From a virus, in the IMG/VR virus record IMGVR_UViG_3300044998_001035, positions 14,807 to 78,806 of that record: DNA of 64,000 bases, one strand, 5' to 3'. Shown piece by piece: positions 2,792-31,327 of this stretch. Each line of letters starts with the position of its first letter. The first letter of the stretch is position 1. The notes beneath the pieces are model-generated. The model was given only the letters and a program-made list of their open reading frames with translations, was not told the DNA's origin and ran no database searches. Both the position numbers and the translations under genes were made by a program.

Positions 2792-4087
2792 ATGTCGATG
2801 AATCCTACACCGGATCGGCACAAAATGCAAGGCCGCGCGCCGGGATTCGCGATGCTGGCGCACTGGGTCGGGGACCGGGCCGACGTCGGCGACGCCGAGG
2901 TCCGGGTGCTCCTCTCGCTGATCCGGCTCGCCCGCGGGCGCGGGGTGGTCGCCTCGACGGACGCGCAGATCGGGCTCCACGCCGGCGGCAAGGGCCGCCA
3001 CGCGGTCTCGCGCGCCCTCGCCGCGCTGGAGGCGTCGGGCCTGATACGACGCGACGCCGGCGCGGGCCGGCGCGGGCCGCGCATGATCTTCTTGGACGAC
3101 GCCATCCTCGGCAGGCCGGGCCAGTGTGACGTCTGCGAGGATCGGGATGTCGCGGATTCGCGACAGGGGGGGTGTCGCGAAAGTGCGGCGCAATGTGTCG
3201 CGGATTCGCGACAGGGGGGGTGTCGCGAAAGTGCGGCGCAATGTGTCGCGGATTCGCGACAGGGGGGGTGTCGCGAAAGTGCGGCGCAATGTGTCGCGGA
3301 TTCGCGACAGGCCCCTGTCGCGGAGATGCGGCAGGGGTGTCGCGAGGAAGCGGCGCAGAGTGTCGCGGATTCGCGACACTCTGGAGAATTCCTGAGAAGA
3401 ATTAAGACCCCCCCTACCCCCCGCGGGGGGGGCGTGTGCGCCGGGACCGCCTCGGAGGGGACGGGAGCCGCGGAGGTCCCCGGGGCCGGGACTCCTCCCG
3501 CACCTGAGGGCGAACCGGCCGGGACGCCCCCCCCGGCCCCCCCCGCCGATCCGCCGCTGTCGGCCCCGGCCCCGGCCGAGTTCAACCCGGCGGCGGTCGC
3601 GGCGGCCGAGGCGCACGTGGCGCGGCTGTTCGAGCTGTACGACGACAACGCCTCTCGGAGCGTGCGGCAGGCGTGCCGCGCCGGGGTGGACCCGGCCTGG
3701 ATCGTCGAGGCCGCCGACGCGATGGCCGAGGCCGGCAAGCTCTCGGCGGGCTGGCCGTACCTGAGGGGCATCCTGAGGCGATACCGGGCGCAGGGCGGGA
3801 CGGACCGGGCGACGGGGGACGGGCCGACGGCGACGGCGACGGCGGCGGCCCGCGGCGGCGCCTCGGCCCCGCGCGTCGCGCTGGGCGACCCGGCGGCCTA
3901 CCTGCCGGCACACGTCCTGACGCCGGAGCGCCACGCGGAACTGACCCGGCGGCGGCGCGAGGCCGAGGAGCGTGGCCGCGCCGCCTACGAGGCGAGCCTG
4001 ACGCCCGCCGAGCGGGCCGACCGGGACCGGGCGTTGCGCCGGATCGAGGCGCTGATGGCCGCCGCCAGGTCCGGGGGTGCTCGATGA
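2792..4087 (+). CDS. Phage replication initiator (N-terminal wHTH, internal iteron repeats)
   Basis: wHTH segment TDAQIG...AVSRALAALEASGLIRR; 16-aa repeats; directly upstream of DnaB. Confidence 0.7.
   Translation: MSMNPTPDRHKMQGRAPGFAMLAHWVGDRADVGDAEVRVLLSLIRLARGRGVVASTDAQIGLHAGGKGRHAVSRALAALEASGLIRRDAGAGRRGPRMIFLDDAILGRPGQCDVCEDRDVADSRQGGCRESAAQCVADSRQGGCRESAAQCVADSRQGGCRESAAQCVADSRQAPVAEMRQGCREEAAQSVADSRHSGEFLRRIKTPPTPRGGGVCAGTASEGTGAAEVPGAGTPPAPEGEPAGTPPPAPPADPPLSAPAPAEFNPAAVAAAEAHVARLFELYDDNASRSVRQACRAGVDPAWIVEAADAMAEAGKLSAGWPYLRGILRRYRAQGGTDRATGDGPTATATAAARGGASAPRVALGDPAAYLPAHVLTPERHAELTRRRREAEERGRAAYEASLTPAERADRDRALRRIEALMAAARSGGAR
3148..3378 (+). repeat. 48-bp tandem repeats containing the palindrome TGTCGCG-GATT-CGCGACA (putative origin iterons)
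   Basis: Palindrome copies start at 3148, 3196, 3244, 3292 (48-bp period) and 3361. Confidence 0.9.
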
Positions 4088-13004: not shown

Positions 13005-13799
13005 TCGGGCTCGATCGCCTGCCGCCCGAGGGCCGGGCCGAGTGGCTGGAGTGGGAGGCAATCGACGTGGCCTGCGGCGTCTGGCAGTCCAAGGTGGACC
13101 GCTCGCGGCGGGCGATCGCGGAACTGGCCGGCTCCGTCCCGTGCTTCTGCGCCGAGTCGTGGGGGAAGGACGGGGTCGTGCTGGCCCACCTGTGCCGGGC
13201 CGTGAACATGTCCATCCCGCTCGTCCACTTCCGGGCCCGGGGCCCGCGCGACCCCGACGCGGACGCGACCCGGGACGCCTACCTGGCGGCCTTCCCGGGG
13301 CAGCGCGTCGTCGAGGTCGAGGTGGACGCCGGCCCGCCCGGCGTTGCCGACGACGGGAACGGGGCGGCGGGGCCTCCCGCCGCACGAGCTGGACCGCGAG
13401 ACGGACGCGGCTTGGAACGCGGCGATCCGGGCCTGCGCCCGGCGCCACGGCCCCCGGCACGTCCCCGGGATTCGCGCCGAGGAGTCGTCGGGCCGGCTGA
13501 TCCGGCAGTGGGTGTACGGGGAGGCGAGCCCCAACGGCTGCGCCCCGATCACGCGTTGGTCGACCGCCGACGTGTTCGCGTACCTGGCGACGCGTCGGCT
13601 GCCGGTCCACCCGGCCTACGCGATGCTCGGGGGCGGGCGATGGCCCCGGGAGCGGCTCCGGGTCGCCGAGATCGGGGACACCCACGGCGCCGCGGGCGGG
13701 CGCCGCGAGTGGGAGCGCGAATACTACGGGGACGTGCTCCGCAGGGCCCTGGCGGGCCGGCTCAGCCCCCCCGCGGGGCCGACGCGACCGACACCGTGA
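12998..13799 (+). pseudogene. PAPS reductase (CysH)-like protein, split by a frameshift at about 13330-13370
   Basis: PP-loop SWGKDGVVL in one frame; GIRAEES, APITRWSTADVFAYL, PVHPAY and RLRV in the next frame. Confidence 0.75.
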
Positions 13800-14616
13800 C
13801 CGTCGCGGGCCCCGGCACGTACAGCCACGCATAGCCCCGGTCGTCCACGGCCAGCTCCCGGGCCCTTCCGTCCAGCGAGATCGACCAGCCCCGGCCCGGC
13901 GCCATCGCGAGCAGGTAGACGTCCGCCCCATTGGCGCCGATCGAGACGGGGGCGGGGTCGAGCCCGGTCCGGCCCGCGAGCATCAGGACCAGCGCGTCCC
14001 CCAGCCCCGGCCGGCGGACCAGCACCCGGGGCGTCTCGGCGACCTGGACGGCCGCGCCGGGCCCCGGCGGGGCGACGACCGGGGGCGCGGGCCCCGGGGC
14101 GGGCGCGGGGGGCGGCGGTGCCGGGACGGGTGCCGGCGACGTCCCGGGGCCGCCCGCGAGCGCGACGAGCCCGGCCCAGACGGCGCCCGCGGCGGCGCCG
14201 TCGAATCGCCAGCGGGGGGCGTCCTCGCCGCACCACAGGTACACCTCGGGGACGGGGCCGGCCGGCGCGTCCCACGCGTCGCGCAGCGCCAGCCGGACGA
14301 CGGCGCCGGGGCGCTCGTCGAGGTACAGGCGGTCGGCCACGACGCGCCGCGCCGCCGCCTCCGCGGGCGCGGCCGGGACGCGGGGCAGCGCCGCCAGCGC
14401 CGCCCAGATCGCGTCCCGCTCCGCGTCCTGGAAGTCGCGCGCGCCCTGGCCCCGGAAGTAGGCCGTCAGCACGCGCCGCGTCGGGGCGGACGGGTCGGCC
14501 CGGAGCAGCGCGAGGTAGATCGGGCTGGCGGGGTCGTCGTCGAGGTAGAGCGCGTCGGCGATCACGTGGCGCACGGCGGGGGCCTCGGAAGTTTCGGGTT
14601 TGAGTCTACAATTCAT
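13762..14616 (-). CDS. Hypothetical protein with an internal duplicated domain
   Basis: RHVIADALYLDD...IWAALAAL repeated as RRVVADRLYLDE...VWAGLVAL; start uncertain. Confidence 0.6.
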   Translation of the reverse strand: MNCRLKPETSEAPAVRHVIADALYLDDDPASPIYLALLRADPSAPTRRVLTAYFRGQGARDFQDAERDAIWAALAALPRVPAAPAEAAARRVVADRLYLDERPGAVVRLALRDAWDAPAGPVPEVYLWCGEDAPRWRFDGAAAGAVWAGLVALAGGPGTSPAPVPAPPPPAPAPGPAPPVVAPPGPGAAVQVAETPRVLVRRPGLGDALVLMLAGRTGLDPAPVSIGANGADVYLLAMAPGRGWSISLDGRARELAVDDRGYAWLYVPGPATVTVSVASAPRGG

Positions 14617-14649
14617 CAGGTATTCTAACCGAATTCGCAATAGAACCCA

Positions 14650-14678
14650 TTGACCCGCGCCGGCGGCGCTGGTAGACA
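14650..14678 (+). promoter_or_regulatory. Sigma70-like promoter of the RAMP/pentamer-array operon
   Basis: TTGACC-17 nt-TAGACA with extended TG, at the edge of an AT-rich island. Confidence 0.55.
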
Positions 14679-14767
14679 TGGGTCATGGTGATGTAAGGCG
14701 GGCATGGCGGGCATGGCGCGGCATCGATTGGCACCGGGGACGGGCGGCACGCGAGGAGACGAGCGGC

Positions 14768-15247
14768 ATGGAAATGGCGAGGCGATACCCGCTGGACTTC
14801 GACGCGATCCGGAAGGGGGACGTGCTCACGGCGGACGTCCTCGAGGAAATCTTCGGGGTCGCCCGGTCGCGCCGGGAGTACAGCAGCCGGCAGGTCGGGC
14901 TGGCGAAGCGGATCGAGCGGGAGCTGGCGCTGCGGGGCCGGCCCGCGACCGTGCGGTGCGTGGGGCCGGAGGTGCGCGTGCTGCTGGACGGGGAGGCGTC
15001 GTCGCGCAACGGCCGGCTGTTCGTCCAGTACCGCGGGAGGATGAGCCGGCGGCACGTCAAGATGGTCGAGGTGGACGTCGCGAACCTGACGCCCGAGGAG
15101 CGGGACCGGCACGGCCGGGCGCTGGTCGGCCAGGCGGCCCAGCTCTGCGGGCTCAGGGAGCGCCGCGTCGAGGCTGCGGCGGCGCACAGGCGGTCCACGC
15201 CGGGCCTCGACGCGGGCGGCGCGGGGAGCCTGCCGCCGCCCCCGTGA
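14768..15247 (+). CDS. Unknown accessory protein of the RAMP/pentamer-array operon
   Basis: GAGGAG RBS; 159 aa; the stop abuts the array. Confidence 0.7.
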   Translation: MEMARRYPLDFDAIRKGDVLTADVLEEIFGVARSRREYSSRQVGLAKRIERELALRGRPATVRCVGPEVRVLLDGEASSRNGRLFVQYRGRMSRRHVKMVEVDVANLTPEERDRHGRALVGQAAQLCGLRERRVEAAAAHRRSTPGLDAGGAGSLPPPP

Positions 15248-15678
15248 GGGCCGGCGTGACGGCACAGGGCATGGCGAGGCGGGGCATGGCTGGGCTGGGC
15301 GGGGCAGGGCAGGGCGTGGCGCGGCAGGGCCCGGCTGGGCAGGGGTCAGTGTTTATACCTGCGGCGTGCGGATATCCCCGGTTCGACCCCGGGGCGCCGC
15401 CATCCCGGTATGGCGTGGCATGGCTGGCCAAGGCGGGGCTGGGCCCGGCGGGGCGGGGCTTGGCTGGGCGAGGCAGGGGTCAGTGTTTATGCCTGCGGCG
15501 AGTGGCAAGGCCCCGGTTCGACCCCGGGGCGTCGCGATCCGGCAGGGCGTGGCGTGGCATGGCGAGGCAGGGCGTGGCTCGGCTGGGCGGGGCTCGGCTG
15601 GGCGGGGCTCGGCTGGACAGGGGTCAGTGTTTATACCTGCGGCGTGCGGATATCCCCGGTTCGACCCCGGGGCGCCGC
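15248..15678 (+). ncRNA. Putative guide-RNA array: 3 units of (GGC-NN)14-16 plus a constant tRNA-like tail
   Basis: Pentamer tracts at 15268-15342, 15407-15476 and 15541-15620; constant tails at 15343-15400, 15477-15535 and 15621-15678 (tails 1 and 3 identical). Confidence 0.8.
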
Positions 15679-15742
15679 GATGGGGTGCGGGACGTCCCTG
15701 GCCCCGGTCGGGTCCGGTTTTGCATTGGTGGAGGAGGACATC

Positions 15743-16342
15743 ATGCTCATGCACAAGCACGTCTCGTTCATGGTCCGCGGGCTTTCCCCGCTGCTGCTGC
15801 ACAACGGGCAGATCGCGAACCCGCTGAACAAGTATGCCAAGGCGCTCAAGGAGATCTCGGCCAAGCGCAAGAAGACCGACGCCGACTACGAGGCGATGGC
15901 GGAGATCGAGTGGATGGGCGGCCTCTACCTCGACGAGCACTCGCGCCCGATCCTCCCGGGCGAGGCGATCGAGTCCGCGTTCCTCAAGGCGGCCAAGCAG
16001 ATCAGGATGGGCGAGAAGGCCAAGGCCGGGATCATCTCAGACGGCATGTGGCCGATCATCCACGCGGGCCCCAAGGACCTGGAGGCGCTGTCGAAGGACC
16101 CCAGGTTCCGGGACACCCGCCGCGTCCGGGTCGGGTCGGCGTCGGTGATGCGCACCCGGCCGATCTTCGTGCCGTGGTCCCTGGAGTTCGAGATCAGCTA
16201 CCTGCCCGACCTGTTCAACGAGAAGCAGGTCGTGGACACGGTCGTCACGATGGGCCGAGTCATCGGCGTCGGGGACTACACGCCGAAGTACGGCCGGTTC
16301 GCCGTCGAGTCCTCGAAGGCCGTCGCGCACAAGGCCGCATGA
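15743..16342 (+). CDS. Stand-alone RAMP/Cas7-like RNA-binding protein (candidate effector of the array)
   Basis: N-terminal strand VRGLSPLLLHNG, PILPGEAIESAFLKAA (RAMP P.IPG..LKG-like) and C-terminal Gly-rich loop IGVGDYTPKYGRFAV; GGAGGAGG RBS. Confidence 0.75.
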   Translation: MLMHKHVSFMVRGLSPLLLHNGQIANPLNKYAKALKEISAKRKKTDADYEAMAEIEWMGGLYLDEHSRPILPGEAIESAFLKAAKQIRMGEKAKAGIISDGMWPIIHAGPKDLEALSKDPRFRDTRRVRVGSASVMRTRPIFVPWSLEFEISYLPDLFNEKQVVDTVVTMGRVIGVGDYTPKYGRFAVESSKAVAHKAA

Positions 16343-16351
16343 CCGCCCCGG

Positions 16352-16380
16352 CCCTGGCGATGCGCGGCGCATCGCCAGGG
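16352..16380 (+). terminator. 13-bp perfect hairpin closing the RAMP operon (no U-tract)
   Basis: CCCTGGCGATGCG-cgg-CGCATCGCCAGGG. Confidence 0.5.
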
Positions 16381-16484: not shown

Positions 16485-16716
16485 ATGTACACGGTCGCGT
16501 TCCTGAATCAGAAGGGGGGCGTCGGCAAGACGTCCTCCGCGTACCACCTCGCGGGGGAGCTGGCGCGGCGCGACCTGCGCGTGCTCGCCTGCGACCTGGA
16601 CCCGCAGGCGTCGCTCACTCAGGGGCGAGTTCCTGGTCCGGCTCGACGACCCGCACGCCGACGGCGCGGCGTTCGCGGAGGCCCTGCGGGCCGCGCTCGC
16701 GAAGGCCGCCGGCTAG
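16485..16716 (+). pseudogene. ParA N-terminal remnant
   Basis: MYTVAFLNQKGGVGKT...VLACDLDPQASLT, then similarity stops after about 47 aa. Confidence 0.75.
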
Positions 16717-16934
16717 GCCGGGCGGCACACACGGCGCCCGGATCGCGATTGACTCCGGGCTCGAGTCGTGTTGAGATCGGGATGGGCCGGCCGCGACGAG
16801 CGCCGGCCCGGCGCGGCCCGCCGGCCGTCGCCGCCGGGGTTCGTCGGCCACCCGGGGGGGGATGGCCGGCGTCGCCCCGAGCGGGGCGCCCGCGCGGGCC
16901 GTCGCCGCACCCGGGCGAGGGGGAGGAAGGCGCC

Positions 16935-17468
16935 GTGATCCTCCGCTACGACTCCGAGGCCGGCACGGTGGTCGCCGAGCCGCCACGCGTCTGGGTGCTG
17001 GTCGGCCAGGTCGCCTCCGGCAAGAGCACGTACGCCGCGCGCCGCGCCCGCCGCGGCGCGATCGCGGTCTGCCACGACGATCTGGTCCGCGCCGTCCACG
17101 CGGGCGGGGCCCACGAGGCGGGGCTGCGCGACTTCTACCGCGCGGCCGAGGAGCACCTGGCGTGGTCGGCGCTGGCGGCCGGCCGGCCCGTGGTGGTGGA
17201 CCGGACGAACCTGACGGCGGCGGAGCGGCGGCGCTGGGTGGCGCTGGCGGGGCGGGCGGGCGTCGAGGCCGTGGCGGTGGCGTTCCCGCGCGAGCGCTGG
17301 CCGGTCCACGCGCGTCGTCGTCACGAGCACGACGCGCGCGGCCTGACCCTGGCGGGCTGGGGCCGGGTCGCGCTGCGGCTGGAGCGGCAGGCGCTGGCGG
17401 AGCCGCTGGACGCGGCCGGGGAGGGGTTCGCGCGGCGCGTCGACGCCGGCCCGGCCCGGCGCCGGTGA
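16935..17468 (+). CDS. P-loop kinase (AAA_33/polynucleotide-kinase-like)
   Basis: VLVGQVASGKSTYA, HDDL, VVVDRTNL; GGAGG RBS. Confidence 0.8.
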   Translation: MILRYDSEAGTVVAEPPRVWVLVGQVASGKSTYAARRARRGAIAVCHDDLVRAVHAGGAHEAGLRDFYRAAEEHLAWSALAAGRPVVVDRTNLTAAERRRWVALAGRAGVEAVAVAFPRERWPVHARRRHEHDARGLTLAGWGRVALRLERQALAEPLDAAGEGFARRVDAGPARRR

Positions 17469-18767: not shown

Positions 18768-18820
18768 CCCCGCGAGGCCCCCGGCAGGCAGGCCCCCCGG
18801 TTCGAGCCCGGGGGCGGGGG
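18768..18820 (+). ncRNA. tRNA-like element (T-arm plus acceptor-like stem)
   Basis: CCCGG-TTCGAGC-CCGGG flanked by CCCCGC/GCGGGG, intergenic. Confidence 0.4.
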
Positions 18821-18871
18821 ATGCCCGGATGGGCGAGACGACCACCAACCACCAGCAGAGGAGACGAGACG

Positions 18872-30960: not shown

Positions 30961-31020
30961 GGGGCGTCGCGGGCGCGTGGCGCGCGAGCGCCGCGGGGGT
31001 TCGACTCCCCCGGCGTCCCC
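30961..31020 (+). ncRNA. tRNA-like element lacking normal D and anticodon arms
   Basis: Acceptor-like GGGGCGTC/GGCGTCCC, hairpin GGCGC-GCGA-GCGCC, T-arm GGGGG-TTCGACT-CCCCC. Confidence 0.55.
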
Positions 31021-31272
31021 TGGGGGCGTGGGCACCCCCCCCTTCGGGCGAGAAGGTGCCAGGCAATCCGAGGGTTTCATGCACGCCTTTACGAGGATTC
31101 GCGCTCCGCCCCGATGCCCCACCCATATGGGGGGGCTCCCCTCCCTTGAAGGCGGAACTTTCCGGGCGCCGCCTCCCGCCCAGGACGTGATCGGAAGCAT
31201 TCTGGGTCGCCATCGTCGGGGATCGACGCGAAAGGAGGTGGTCATGCGACGGTCGGGTTGACGGCCCGACGT

Positions 31273-31327
31273 GCGGGGGTGGGGAAACCGGCTCGCCGGC
31301 CCGCGGTTCGACTCCGCGGCCCCCGCA
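31273..31327 (+). ncRNA. tRNA-like element lacking normal D and anticodon arms
   Basis: Acceptor GCGGGGG/CCCCCGC+A, hairpin CCGG-CTCG-CCGG, T-arm CCGCGG-TTCGACT-CCGCGG. Confidence 0.55.

What the first reader, a model, noticed from the sequence alone, without database searches (positions are those of the whole stretch)
14650..16380. Candidate CRISPR-independent RNA-guided system: solo RAMP/Cas7-like protein plus (GGC-NN)n guide array
Seen: one operon (promoter, 159-aa unknown gene, 430-nt non-coding array, 199-aa gene, hairpin). The array has three units in strict 5-nt register, each a near-invariant GGC (single GGT, GCC and GAC variants) plus a variable dinucleotide. Unit 1 (15268-15342): AT GA GG AT TG TG GG AG AG GT GC AG CC TG AG. 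Unit 2 (15407-15476): AT GT AT TG AA GG TG CC GG GG TT TG GA AG. Unit 3 (15541-15620): AG GT GT AT GA AG GT TC TG GG TC TG GG TC TG AG. Each is followed by a shared 58-59 nt tail. Established: the protein has the RAMP hallmarks of Cas7/Csm3/Cmr4 backbones (SPLxxH strand, P.LPG..I helix, C-terminal Gly-rich loop), which polymerise along RNA with a fixed period. No cas1/2/3/5/6/10 or CRISPR array is present in the window. Inference: each subunit binds one GGC and displays the NN, so the dinucleotides together spell a gapped target (for example NNxNNx), giving three guides, probably against competing phages or host genes by binding or repression rather than cleavage. From memory this resembles recently reported phage 'VIPR' GGY/NN systems; I have not verified that.
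Basis: partly seen in the sequence, partly recalled or inferred. Interest (0 to 1): 0.97.

Follow-up and report, generated by a model that had tools for sequence, protein, structure and literature searches.

The report
Phage VIPR guide-RNA system, tRNA-like separators
This complete high-GC phage genome carries a VIPR system, a CRISPR-related RNA-guided DNA silencer first described in 2026 preprints; it is a new example of a known kind, and miniature tRNA-like folds separate its three guide RNAs.

Summary

- **Protein:** window 15743-16342 encodes a 199-aa protein that matches the solved SUSP1 Vipr protein (PDB 36pp) over its full length, E=2.6e-30. It models with a Csm3/Cmr4-type RAMP fold. 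All functionally validated GGY- and DNA-contacting residues are kept.
- **Guides:** upstream lie three (GGC-NN) tracts of 15, 14 and 16 units. No other such tract occurs in the 78.8-kb genome.
- **Accessory gene:** the 159-aa upstream gene is a homologue of Vap1, the type II accessory protein. The gene order here is vap1, array, vipr.
- **Family context:** of 83 homologous loci, 55 carry such arrays beside vipr, always on vipr's strand.
- **Natural variation:** a sludge-metagenome relative has near-identical vap1 and vipr. Its first guide differs at 8 positions, all NN, and lacks two units.
- **Difference from the literature:** each constant tail is a short hairpin followed by a tRNA-like acceptor/T-arm minihelix. 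This probably marks cleavage sites for host tRNA-processing enzymes. The three VIPR papers do not mention it. Earlier reports of this scan describe the same tails on other phages.
- **Not found:** no natural target, and no expression data.

Verdict: a new member of a known kind, of modest interest.

The parts
14650..14678 (+). Possible promoter (TTGACC, 17-nt spacer, TAGACA) beside an AT-rich stretch at 14600-14650. Unverified.
   Evidence: Read. The consensus scan finds no promoter here.
14768..15247 (+). vap1: a 159-aa Vipr-accessory protein, winged-helix-like followed by two long helices
   Evidence: tblastn finds homologues beside vipr in at least 21 loci. A profile seeded from it finds 27 other loci. 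jackhmmer from the Vap1 of wV8 (SUSP1-type), LESphi2 and MakoManhole reaches this ORF at 1e-14, 6.5e-31 and 6.5e-13. The AF2 model has pLDDT 89.9. Foldseek gives only weak winged-helix matches.
15268..15342 (+). vrRNA1 guide tract: 15 GGC-NN units
15343..15360 (+). Constant handle 1: starts with GGGT, as tails do across the family, and forms a short hairpin
15361..15401 (+). tRNA-like minihelix 1: 7-bp acceptor-like stem, linker containing GG, 5-bp T-stem, TTCGACC loop
   Evidence: ARAGORN's 'tRNA-Pro' is a forced call built on the third copy.
15407..15476 (+). vrRNA2 guide tract: 14 units
15477..15537 (+). Handle 2 plus tRNA-like minihelix 2. One acceptor pair is G-U, and the handle hairpin has A changed to G; both changes keep pairing.
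15541..15620 (+). vrRNA3 guide tract: 16 units, with an internal 15-nt repeat (NN = TC TG GG, three times)
15621..15679 (+). Handle 3 plus tRNA-like minihelix 3
15743..16342 (+). vipr: a 199-aa RAMP protein that should polymerise on the GGC-NN tracts
   Evidence: PDB 36pp SUSP1 Vipr at E=2.6e-30, residues 7-190 against 4-189. PHROG 4652 at E=1e-50. AF2 pLDDT 94.8. Foldseek matches Csm3/Cmr4/type VII Cas7 at E=4e-6. Key residues are conserved.
16352..16380 (+). 14-bp GC-rich hairpin after vipr, probably the end of the operon. It has no U-tract.
   Evidence: Read. It is not called by the terminator scan.

Best explanation
This is a VIPR (Viral Interference Programmable Repeat) system, most likely type II, in a complete 78.8-kb, 75% GC phage genome.

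**Shown here**
- The protein is a Vipr homologue.
- The upstream gene is a Vap1 homologue.
- The three tracts have the vrRNA architecture.

**Carried over from experiments on SUSP1 and P. fulva VIPR**
- The operon is transcribed into vrRNAs.
- One Vipr protomer binds each GGC and hides it, so a helical filament forms that displays the NN dinucleotides.
- These pair with double-stranded DNA that reads NNxNNx (one skipped base per unit), giving an R-loop triplex.
- The bound complex blocks transcription of a competing phage, satellite or prophage. Vap1 enhances the effect.

**Inferred here**
- The tRNA-like acceptor/T-arm minihelix after each guide is a cleavage signal for host tRNA-processing enzymes (RNase P on its 5' side, RNase Z or similar on its 3' side).
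- That cleavage would release three separate guides of about 95 nt, each ending in a short hairpin handle.
For: **Vipr identity**
- Full-length match to the solved SUSP1 Vipr, E=2.6e-30.
- High-confidence RAMP model whose best PDB neighbours are Csm3/Cmr4/Cas7.
- SUSP1 residues with published roles (10.64898/2026.04.26.720927) are conserved: H17, K33, R39, K82, R138 and D177 map to H20, K36, R42, K85, R139 and D178. W178 is replaced by another aromatic, Y179.

**vrRNA architecture**
- Tracts of 14-16 GGY-NN units, within the published range of 9-16, each followed by a constant tail.
- They are unique in the genome and far above shuffled controls.

**Family association**
- 55 of 83 homologous loci have GGY-NN arrays next to vipr. 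All are on vipr's strand and none on the opposite strand.
- Tails across the family begin with GGG or GGA, as here.

**Vap1**
- Homologues lie beside vipr in many loci. They are linked by jackhmmer to the Vap1 of a SUSP1-type phage. That phage's Vipr matches SUSP1 Vipr over all 195 residues at E=6e-128.

**Guide-like variation**
- One sludge-metagenome contig covers 14600-15386. It differs from the window at 4 of about 650 bases upstream of the array.
- Within guide 1 it differs at 8 bases, every one an NN position, and has a 10-nt (two-unit) deletion.
- Indels in the arrays and tails are not multiples of three.

**No self-target**
[quoted passage not shown] The paper reports the same for its systems.

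**tRNA-like separators**
- Each has a 6-7-bp acceptor-like stem stacked on a 5-6-bp T-stem with a TTCGANY loop.
- The same design with different stem sequences follows guides in Gordonia phage MakoManhole, L006 and L072. In MakoManhole it also precedes the first guide.
- This genome has six such elements, all on the + strand and none on the - strand.
Against: - No natural target was found, so target-directed function in this phage is unproven.
- There is no expression or RNA-end data.
- No consensus promoter or terminator was detected.
- Folding energies of the tails are no better than shuffles in this GC-rich sequence (z = -0.2 to +0.7). The minihelix therefore rests on motif, position and cross-lineage compensatory changes, not thermodynamics.
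- Rfam's tRNA model does not score these elements.
- SUSP1 R179, which contacts the pyrimidine of GGY, is T180 here.
- Assignment to type II rests on similarity to two type II references and on Vap1. It does not rest on the paper's own phylogeny.
Confidence: 0.85

Rival explanations
1. It is the same VIPR system, but the tRNA-like minihelix is not a processing signal. It stays on the mature vrRNA as its structured 3' cap, filling the role of the SUSP1 pseudoknot by capping the filament, protecting the 3' end or mediating dimerisation.
For: In SUSP1 the tail pseudoknot caps the 3' end and is resolved in the filament. In this window the minihelix always follows a guide.
Against: In MakoManhole a copy sits before the first guide, where it cannot be that guide's tail. 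Further copies lie in this genome far from any guide, at 18801, 31000 and 31307. A separate short hairpin handle already follows the last repeat, as in many relatives that lack a minihelix.
Confidence: 0.3
2. The system is intact but does not act on rival elements. It targets the host chromosome or regulates the phage's own genes.
For: No rival-element target was found in any collection. A published case exists of vrRNAs aimed at host REP elements, encoded by satellites (10.64898/2026.10.15.759431).
Against: No own-genome match exceeds shuffled controls. The host is unknown, so its genome could not be tested. Published natural targets of type II systems are mostly satellites and prophages.
Confidence: 0.1
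3. The GGC-NN tracts are translated, for example as an N-terminal extension of the 199-aa protein (ORF 15410-16342), or they are simple G-rich DNA repeats with no RNA role.
For: An open frame runs from 15410 into vipr. The tracts are G-rich.
Against: Homologues align from residue 1-7 of the 199-aa form, and a strong GGAGGAGG precedes 15743. A 5-nt period cannot hold a reading frame. Relatives carry 10-, 2- and 1-nt indels there. Arrays accompany vipr in 55 of 83 loci, on one strand only. vrRNAs of this design are experimentally shown in the family.
Confidence: 0.02

Closest known systems
Type II VIPR systems of Escherichia phage SUSP1 and the Pseudomonas fulva prophage (bioRxiv 10.64898/2026.04.26.720920; structures in 10.64898/2026.04.26.720927, PDB 36pp; biology in 10.64898/2026.10.15.759431)
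   Same: A single small RAMP protein, 33% identical to SUSP1 Vipr with the key residues conserved. A Vap1-family accessory gene. Several vrRNAs of 14-16 GGY-NN units with a constant 3' tail that starts with GGGY. A phage genome with no cas genes and no CRISPR array. No self-target.
   Different: The gene order is vap1, array, vipr, whereas SUSP1 has vrRNA, vipr, vap1, array. The repeats are almost purely GGC. The tail is a short hairpin plus a tRNA-like acceptor/T-arm minihelix instead of a pseudoknot. R179 is replaced by T. The genome is 75% GC and comes from a hot-spring or microbial-mat metagenome. The target is unknown.
Hammerhead-ribozyme-interspersed vrRNA arrays of type I and V VIPR systems (same preprint, fig. 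S19)
   Same: A structured RNA element between consecutive guides that would cut a long transcript into single vrRNAs.
   Different: Here the element is not self-cleaving. It would depend on host tRNA-processing enzymes. That is inferred, not shown.
Class 1 CRISPR backbone RAMPs (Csm3, Cmr4, Cas7)
   Same: The fold (Foldseek E=4e-6), the glycine-rich loop, a thumb that flips bases at a fixed period, and polymerisation along a guide RNA.
   Different: There is no second RAMP, large or small subunit, Cas6, Cas1/2 or CRISPR array. The period is 5 nt with three hidden bases, not 6 nt with one. The guide is non-contiguous.
tRNA-like processing signals: the tmRNA tRNA-like domain, mascRNA/MALAT1, and engineered tRNA-gRNA arrays (from my own knowledge)
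   Same: An acceptor stem stacked on a T-arm is the minimal shape recognised by RNase P and RNase Z. It is used in nature and in engineering to release flanking RNAs.
   Different: No cleavage has been shown for these elements. They lack D and anticodon arms and are not scored by Rfam's tRNA or tmRNA models.

Membership tests
VIPR system | Vipr protein: a homologue of the published Vipr RAMP family | tested here: met
   phmmer against PDB 36pp 'SUSP1 Vipr protein': E=2.6e-30, residues 7-190 against 4-189 of 202.
VIPR system | Minimal RAMP fold: a single RRM core, a glycine-rich loop and a thumb | tested here: met
   AF2 pLDDT 94.8. Best PDB neighbours are Csm3/Cmr4/type VII Cas7, probability 1.0. 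The C-terminal G-loop motif GVGDY..KYGRF aligns to the SUSP1 G-loop.
VIPR system | Residues that bind GGY and DNA in SUSP1 (H17, K33, R39, K82, R138, D177, W178) | tested here: met
   They map to H20, K36, R42, K85, R139, D178 and Y179, which is aromatic. R179 is T180 and M72 is A75.
VIPR system | vrRNA genes: at least 4 (typically 9-16) tandem GGY-NN units beside vipr on its strand | tested here: met
   15, 14 and 16 units lie 60-475 nt upstream of vipr on the + strand.
VIPR system | A constant structured 3' tail after each repeat tract | tested here: met
   About 59 nt are conserved between the three copies. The structure differs from the published pseudoknot.
VIPR system | NN positions hypervariable while GGY is conserved among close relatives | tested here: met
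   The orthologous sludge contig has 8 of 8 substitutions in guide 1 at NN positions, against 4 in about 650 nt of vap1 and leader. Other contigs laid on the arrays may come from unrelated VIPR arrays and were not counted.
VIPR system | Expression of vrRNAs and co-purification with Vipr | not testable with these tools
   No RNA run is on record as a holder. The runs laid were contigs only.
VIPR system | A natural DNA target that obeys the 1-nt skip rule (at least 80% NN match) | tested here: inconclusive
   No convincing hit. The best is 26/30 in a Spirochaetales MAG, but there the skip base does not fall on the wobble position of the coding frame, and the hit is within chance. The scans needed exact sub-patterns.
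VIPR type II | Vap1-family accessory gene in the locus | tested here: met
   jackhmmer from three Vap1 seeds reaches the 159-aa ORF at 1e-14 to 6.5e-31. The database was small (945 ORFs from these loci), so drift cannot be fully excluded.
VIPR type II | Placement in the type II clade of the published Vipr phylogeny | not tested
   Reference sequences of the other six types were not available. Identity is 33-38% to three type II-like references.
CRISPR-Cas (class 1) | A CRISPR repeat-spacer array and further cas genes (cas1/2, cas5, cas6, large subunit) | tested here: not met
   No such array by TRF. None of about 20 scanned ORFs is a cas gene.
tRNA gene (for the minihelices) | A full cloverleaf with D and anticodon arms | tested here: not met
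   No Rfam tRNA or tmRNA match even at E<=10. ARAGORN's single 'tRNA-Pro' borrows guide sequence for the missing arms.

The most novel reading that the evidence does not exclude
In this phage, and in a set of mostly high-GC VIPR phages, guide arrays are punctuated by minimal tRNA mimics: an acceptor stem, a D-loop-like GG linker and a T-arm. Host RNase P and RNase Z would cut at these mimics, which would be a third maturation route for vrRNAs beside stand-alone genes and hammerhead ribozymes. The same mimic is used elsewhere in this genome (18801, 31000, 31307) as general transcript punctuation.
Probability: 0.45. Interest if true: 0.5.

Novelty: new member of a known kind. Interest (0 to 1): 0.35.

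Why it matters
- **Range of the family.** It extends the published VIPR family to a complete, very GC-rich environmental phage. It also shows that the vap1-array-vipr order is tolerated.
- **Guide turnover.** It gives a natural example of guide turnover between near-identical phages from different habitats: hot-spring or microbial mat versus sludge.
- **Testable maturation mechanism.** The tRNA-like separators suggest a concrete, testable route for guide maturation that the VIPR papers do not describe. Gordonia phage MakoManhole is a cultured phage with the same design, and it could be used to test this.
- **What it does not change.** It does not alter the understanding of how VIPR recognises DNA.

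Tried and rejected
**Target searches (none convincing)**
- Exact scans of the 3' 11 NN of each guide, including the terminal AG: 0 hits in viral contigs. For guide 1, also 0 in metagenome and genome contigs.
- I then saw that the last NN is biased family-wide and repeated the scans without it.
  - Viral contigs, 9 NN: guide 1 gave 1 hit (21/30, no extension). Guide 2 gave 0. Guide 3 gave 8 hits in collagen-like repeats with no extension.
  - Metagenome contigs, guide 2, 10 NN: 8 hits, best 24/28.
  - Genome contigs, guide 1, 10 NN: 7 hits, best 26/30.
- The shared "peptide" in these hits is forced by the pattern itself. Codon-position GC shows most hits are not in the wobble-aligned frame, so I treat them as chance.
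- Mismatch-tolerant searches also found nothing:
  - the own genome;
  - all 83 fetched loci;
  - 401 Actinomycetota genomes;
  - five whole high-GC VIPR virus records.
- The tail motif occurs in no other viral contig.
Exact matching is much less sensitive than the nhmmer/80% method of the paper.

**Host**
- The host was not identified. The capsid protein's nearest isolates are actinobacteriophages at about 27% identity. The terminase is uninformative. Relatives cannot be drawn for a virus record.

**Expression**
- No RNA holder is listed for the stretch. The laid runs were contigs, so no RNA ends could be read.

**Other negative or weak results**
- Vap1 has no Pfam or PHROG family, no PDB sequence match and only weak Foldseek matches.
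- A MAFFT alignment of the minihelices put the acceptor strands out of register, so I did not use the count of structure pairs. The pair table is used instead.
Full report
**What is there.** Window 14650-16380 lies in a complete IMG/VR virus record: 78,806 bp, direct terminal repeats, window = bases 14807-78806. GC content is 75%. The record encodes a terminase, portal, major head protein, DnaB-type helicase, ThyX and a sliding clamp. The stretch holds, all on the + strand:
- a 159-aa gene (14768-15247);
- three tracts of GGC-NN pentamers with 15, 14 and 16 units (15268-15342, 15407-15476, 15541-15620), each followed by a constant sequence;
- a 199-aa gene (15743-16342);
- a 14-bp hairpin (16352-16380).

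The tracts are the only ones of their kind in the genome. They score 15, 12 and 15, against at most 4 elsewhere and at most 5 in shuffled genomes.

**The protein.** Pfam has no match. PHROG 4652, of unknown function, matches at 1e-50. Against PDB sequences, the 199-aa protein matches "SUSP1 Vipr protein" (36pp) at E=2.6e-30 over essentially its whole length.
- An AlphaFold model built on 31 homologues has pLDDT 94.8. In a PDB copy that predates 36pp, its closest structures are the Csm3, Cmr4 and type VII Cas7 backbone subunits, at E=4e-6.
- I aligned it with phage wV8 Vipr, which matches SUSP1 Vipr over all 195 residues at E=6e-128. The residues that the cryo-EM paper identifies are conserved: H17, K33, R39, K82, R138 and D177. 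These include the five whose alanine substitution abolishes or reduces silencing. W178 is Y here and R179 is T.

**The literature.** Three preprints of 2026 describe VIPR systems.
- A system has a lone Vipr RAMP, an accessory vap gene, and vrRNAs made of 9-16 GGY/NN repeats plus a constant tail.
- One protomer binds each repeat. The NN dinucleotides read double-stranded DNA with one skipped base per unit, forming an R-loop triplex. Binding represses transcription.
- Natural targets are satellites, prophages and rival VIPR loci.
- Seven types are distinguished. SUSP1 and the P. fulva prophage are type II, with vap1.

**Family association.** A profile of 31 homologues retrieved 80 IMG/VR loci. 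I added three annotated phages: wV8, Gordonia phage MakoManhole and Pseudomonas phage LESphi2. Of these 83 loci, 55 carry GGY-NN arrays immediately beside vipr. Every array is on vipr's strand and none is on the other strand. Tails are very diverse, but most begin with GGG or GGA as here. The last NN before the tail is biased to AA, AT, AG or GA. The invariant terminal AG of the three guides is therefore probably handle rather than guide.

**The upstream gene.** The 159-aa protein has tblastn homologues next to vipr in at least 21 loci, upstream or downstream. A profile built from them finds 27 other loci. jackhmmer started from the gene downstream of vipr in wV8 (the SUSP1-type Vap1), LESphi2 or MakoManhole reaches the window's ORF at 1e-14, 6.5e-31 and 6.5e-13. 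Its model (pLDDT 89.9) is a helix-helix-β-hairpin unit followed by two long helices. Foldseek matches are weak (E 0.4-3) but are mostly winged-helix proteins. This fits the "WH-like" description of type II Vap proteins. I read the gene as vap1 and the system as type II with a rearranged order. I could not place it in the paper's own tree.

**Natural variation.** The stretch is held fully by hot-spring and microbial-mat runs, which are probably the source. It is held about half by sludge and wastewater runs.
- In one sludge run, a single contig covers 14600-15386. It differs at 4 positions in the roughly 650 nt of leader and vap1.
- In guide 1 it differs at 8 positions, all NN, and two whole units (10 nt) are deleted.
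- Another contig from the same run covers vipr with 6 substitutions.
- Indels in arrays and tails are of 1, 2 and 10 nt.

This is the pattern expected of a diversifying non-coding guide on a conserved scaffold. Many other contigs laid on the arrays probably come from unrelated VIPR arrays, so I do not count them.

**The tail.** Each constant region has two parts: an 18-nt handle with a small hairpin, then a 41-44-nt element.
- The element has a 6-7-bp stem enclosing a 9-10-nt linker that contains GG, and a 5-6-bp stem with a TTCGACC loop. This is the acceptor/T-arm half of a tRNA.
- ARAGORN's only "tRNA" in the window is a forced call on the third copy. Rfam finds nothing.
- Folding energy is not better than shuffles in this GC-rich context.
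- The evidence is comparative. The same design with unrelated stem sequences follows guides in MakoManhole (three copies, one before the first guide), L006 and L072 (three copies). Pairing is kept throughout.
- The phage has three further copies at 18801, 31000 and 31307. All six are on the + strand and none on the - strand.
- None of the three VIPR papers mentions tRNA. They do describe ribozyme-interspersed arrays.
- I infer that these are punctuation marks cut by host tRNA-processing enzymes. The alternative, that they stay on as 3' caps, is not excluded.
- Earlier reports of this scan describe the same tails in at least eight other phage genomes.

**Targets.** Under the 1-nt skip rule there is no self-target and no match in the fetched loci. 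Exact sub-pattern scans of the viral, metagenome and genome collections gave nothing convincing. Neither did mismatch-tolerant searches of 401 Actinomycetota genomes and five high-GC VIPR virus records. The best hit was 26/30. The hits share a peptide only because the pattern fixes two of every three bases, and their frames are mostly wrong by codon-position GC. The rival element and the host remain unknown. The capsid protein is distantly (about 27%) related only to actinobacteriophage capsids.

**Verdict.** This is a genuine and apparently intact VIPR system: a new member of a published kind, probably type II. The feature that differs from the held literature is the tRNA-like separator. That feature is inferred, testable, and already seen elsewhere by this scan.

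Noticed in passing
window 18780-18822, 30965-31020 and 31270-31326 (+): Three further tRNA-like acceptor/T-arm minihelices lie in intergenic DNA far from any guide tract. With the three in the array, the genome has six on the + strand and none on the - strand. The two near 31000-31320 bracket about 250 nt of lower-GC sequence that has no Rfam match.
   Followed up: partly
window 14697-14724 (+): Three copies of a 9-nt repeat (GGCGGGCAT) lie in the leader between the possible promoter and vap1. The period is 9, not 5, so this is not a vrRNA tract. It could be an operator or a decayed remnant.
   Followed up: partly
window 16485-17468 (+): The ORF just downstream of the hairpin starts like a ParA/MinD ATPase (first ~50 aa) and, after a low-complexity stretch, continues as an AAA_33 kinase-like domain (residues 169-270). 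This may be a fusion, a frameshift or two genes.
   Followed up: no
window 13344-13799 (+): There is a weak PAPS-reductase-like match (PF01507, E=0.0016, below the family cut-off) about 2 kb upstream. I saw no link to the VIPR locus.
   Followed up: no
window 3148-3311: A perfect 48-nt tandem repeat in 3.4 copies contains inverted repeats, about 360 nt upstream of the DnaB-like helicase gene. These may be origin iterons.
   Followed up: no
L003 (Gordonia phage MakoManhole, PQ184807) 1650-1760 and 2890-3145: This cultured phage has a VIPR locus with vrRNAs on both sides of vipr-vap1. tRNA-like minihelices lie before and after the guides. The GenBank record annotates none of these RNAs.
   Followed up: partly
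window 15566-15616: Guide 3 contains a 15-nt internal repeat (NN = TC TG GG, three times). Its target would hold a 9-bp tandem repeat, or the tract grew by slippage. Database matches to this part were collagen-like repeats of giant-virus contigs, with no extension beyond the repeat.
   Followed up: partly
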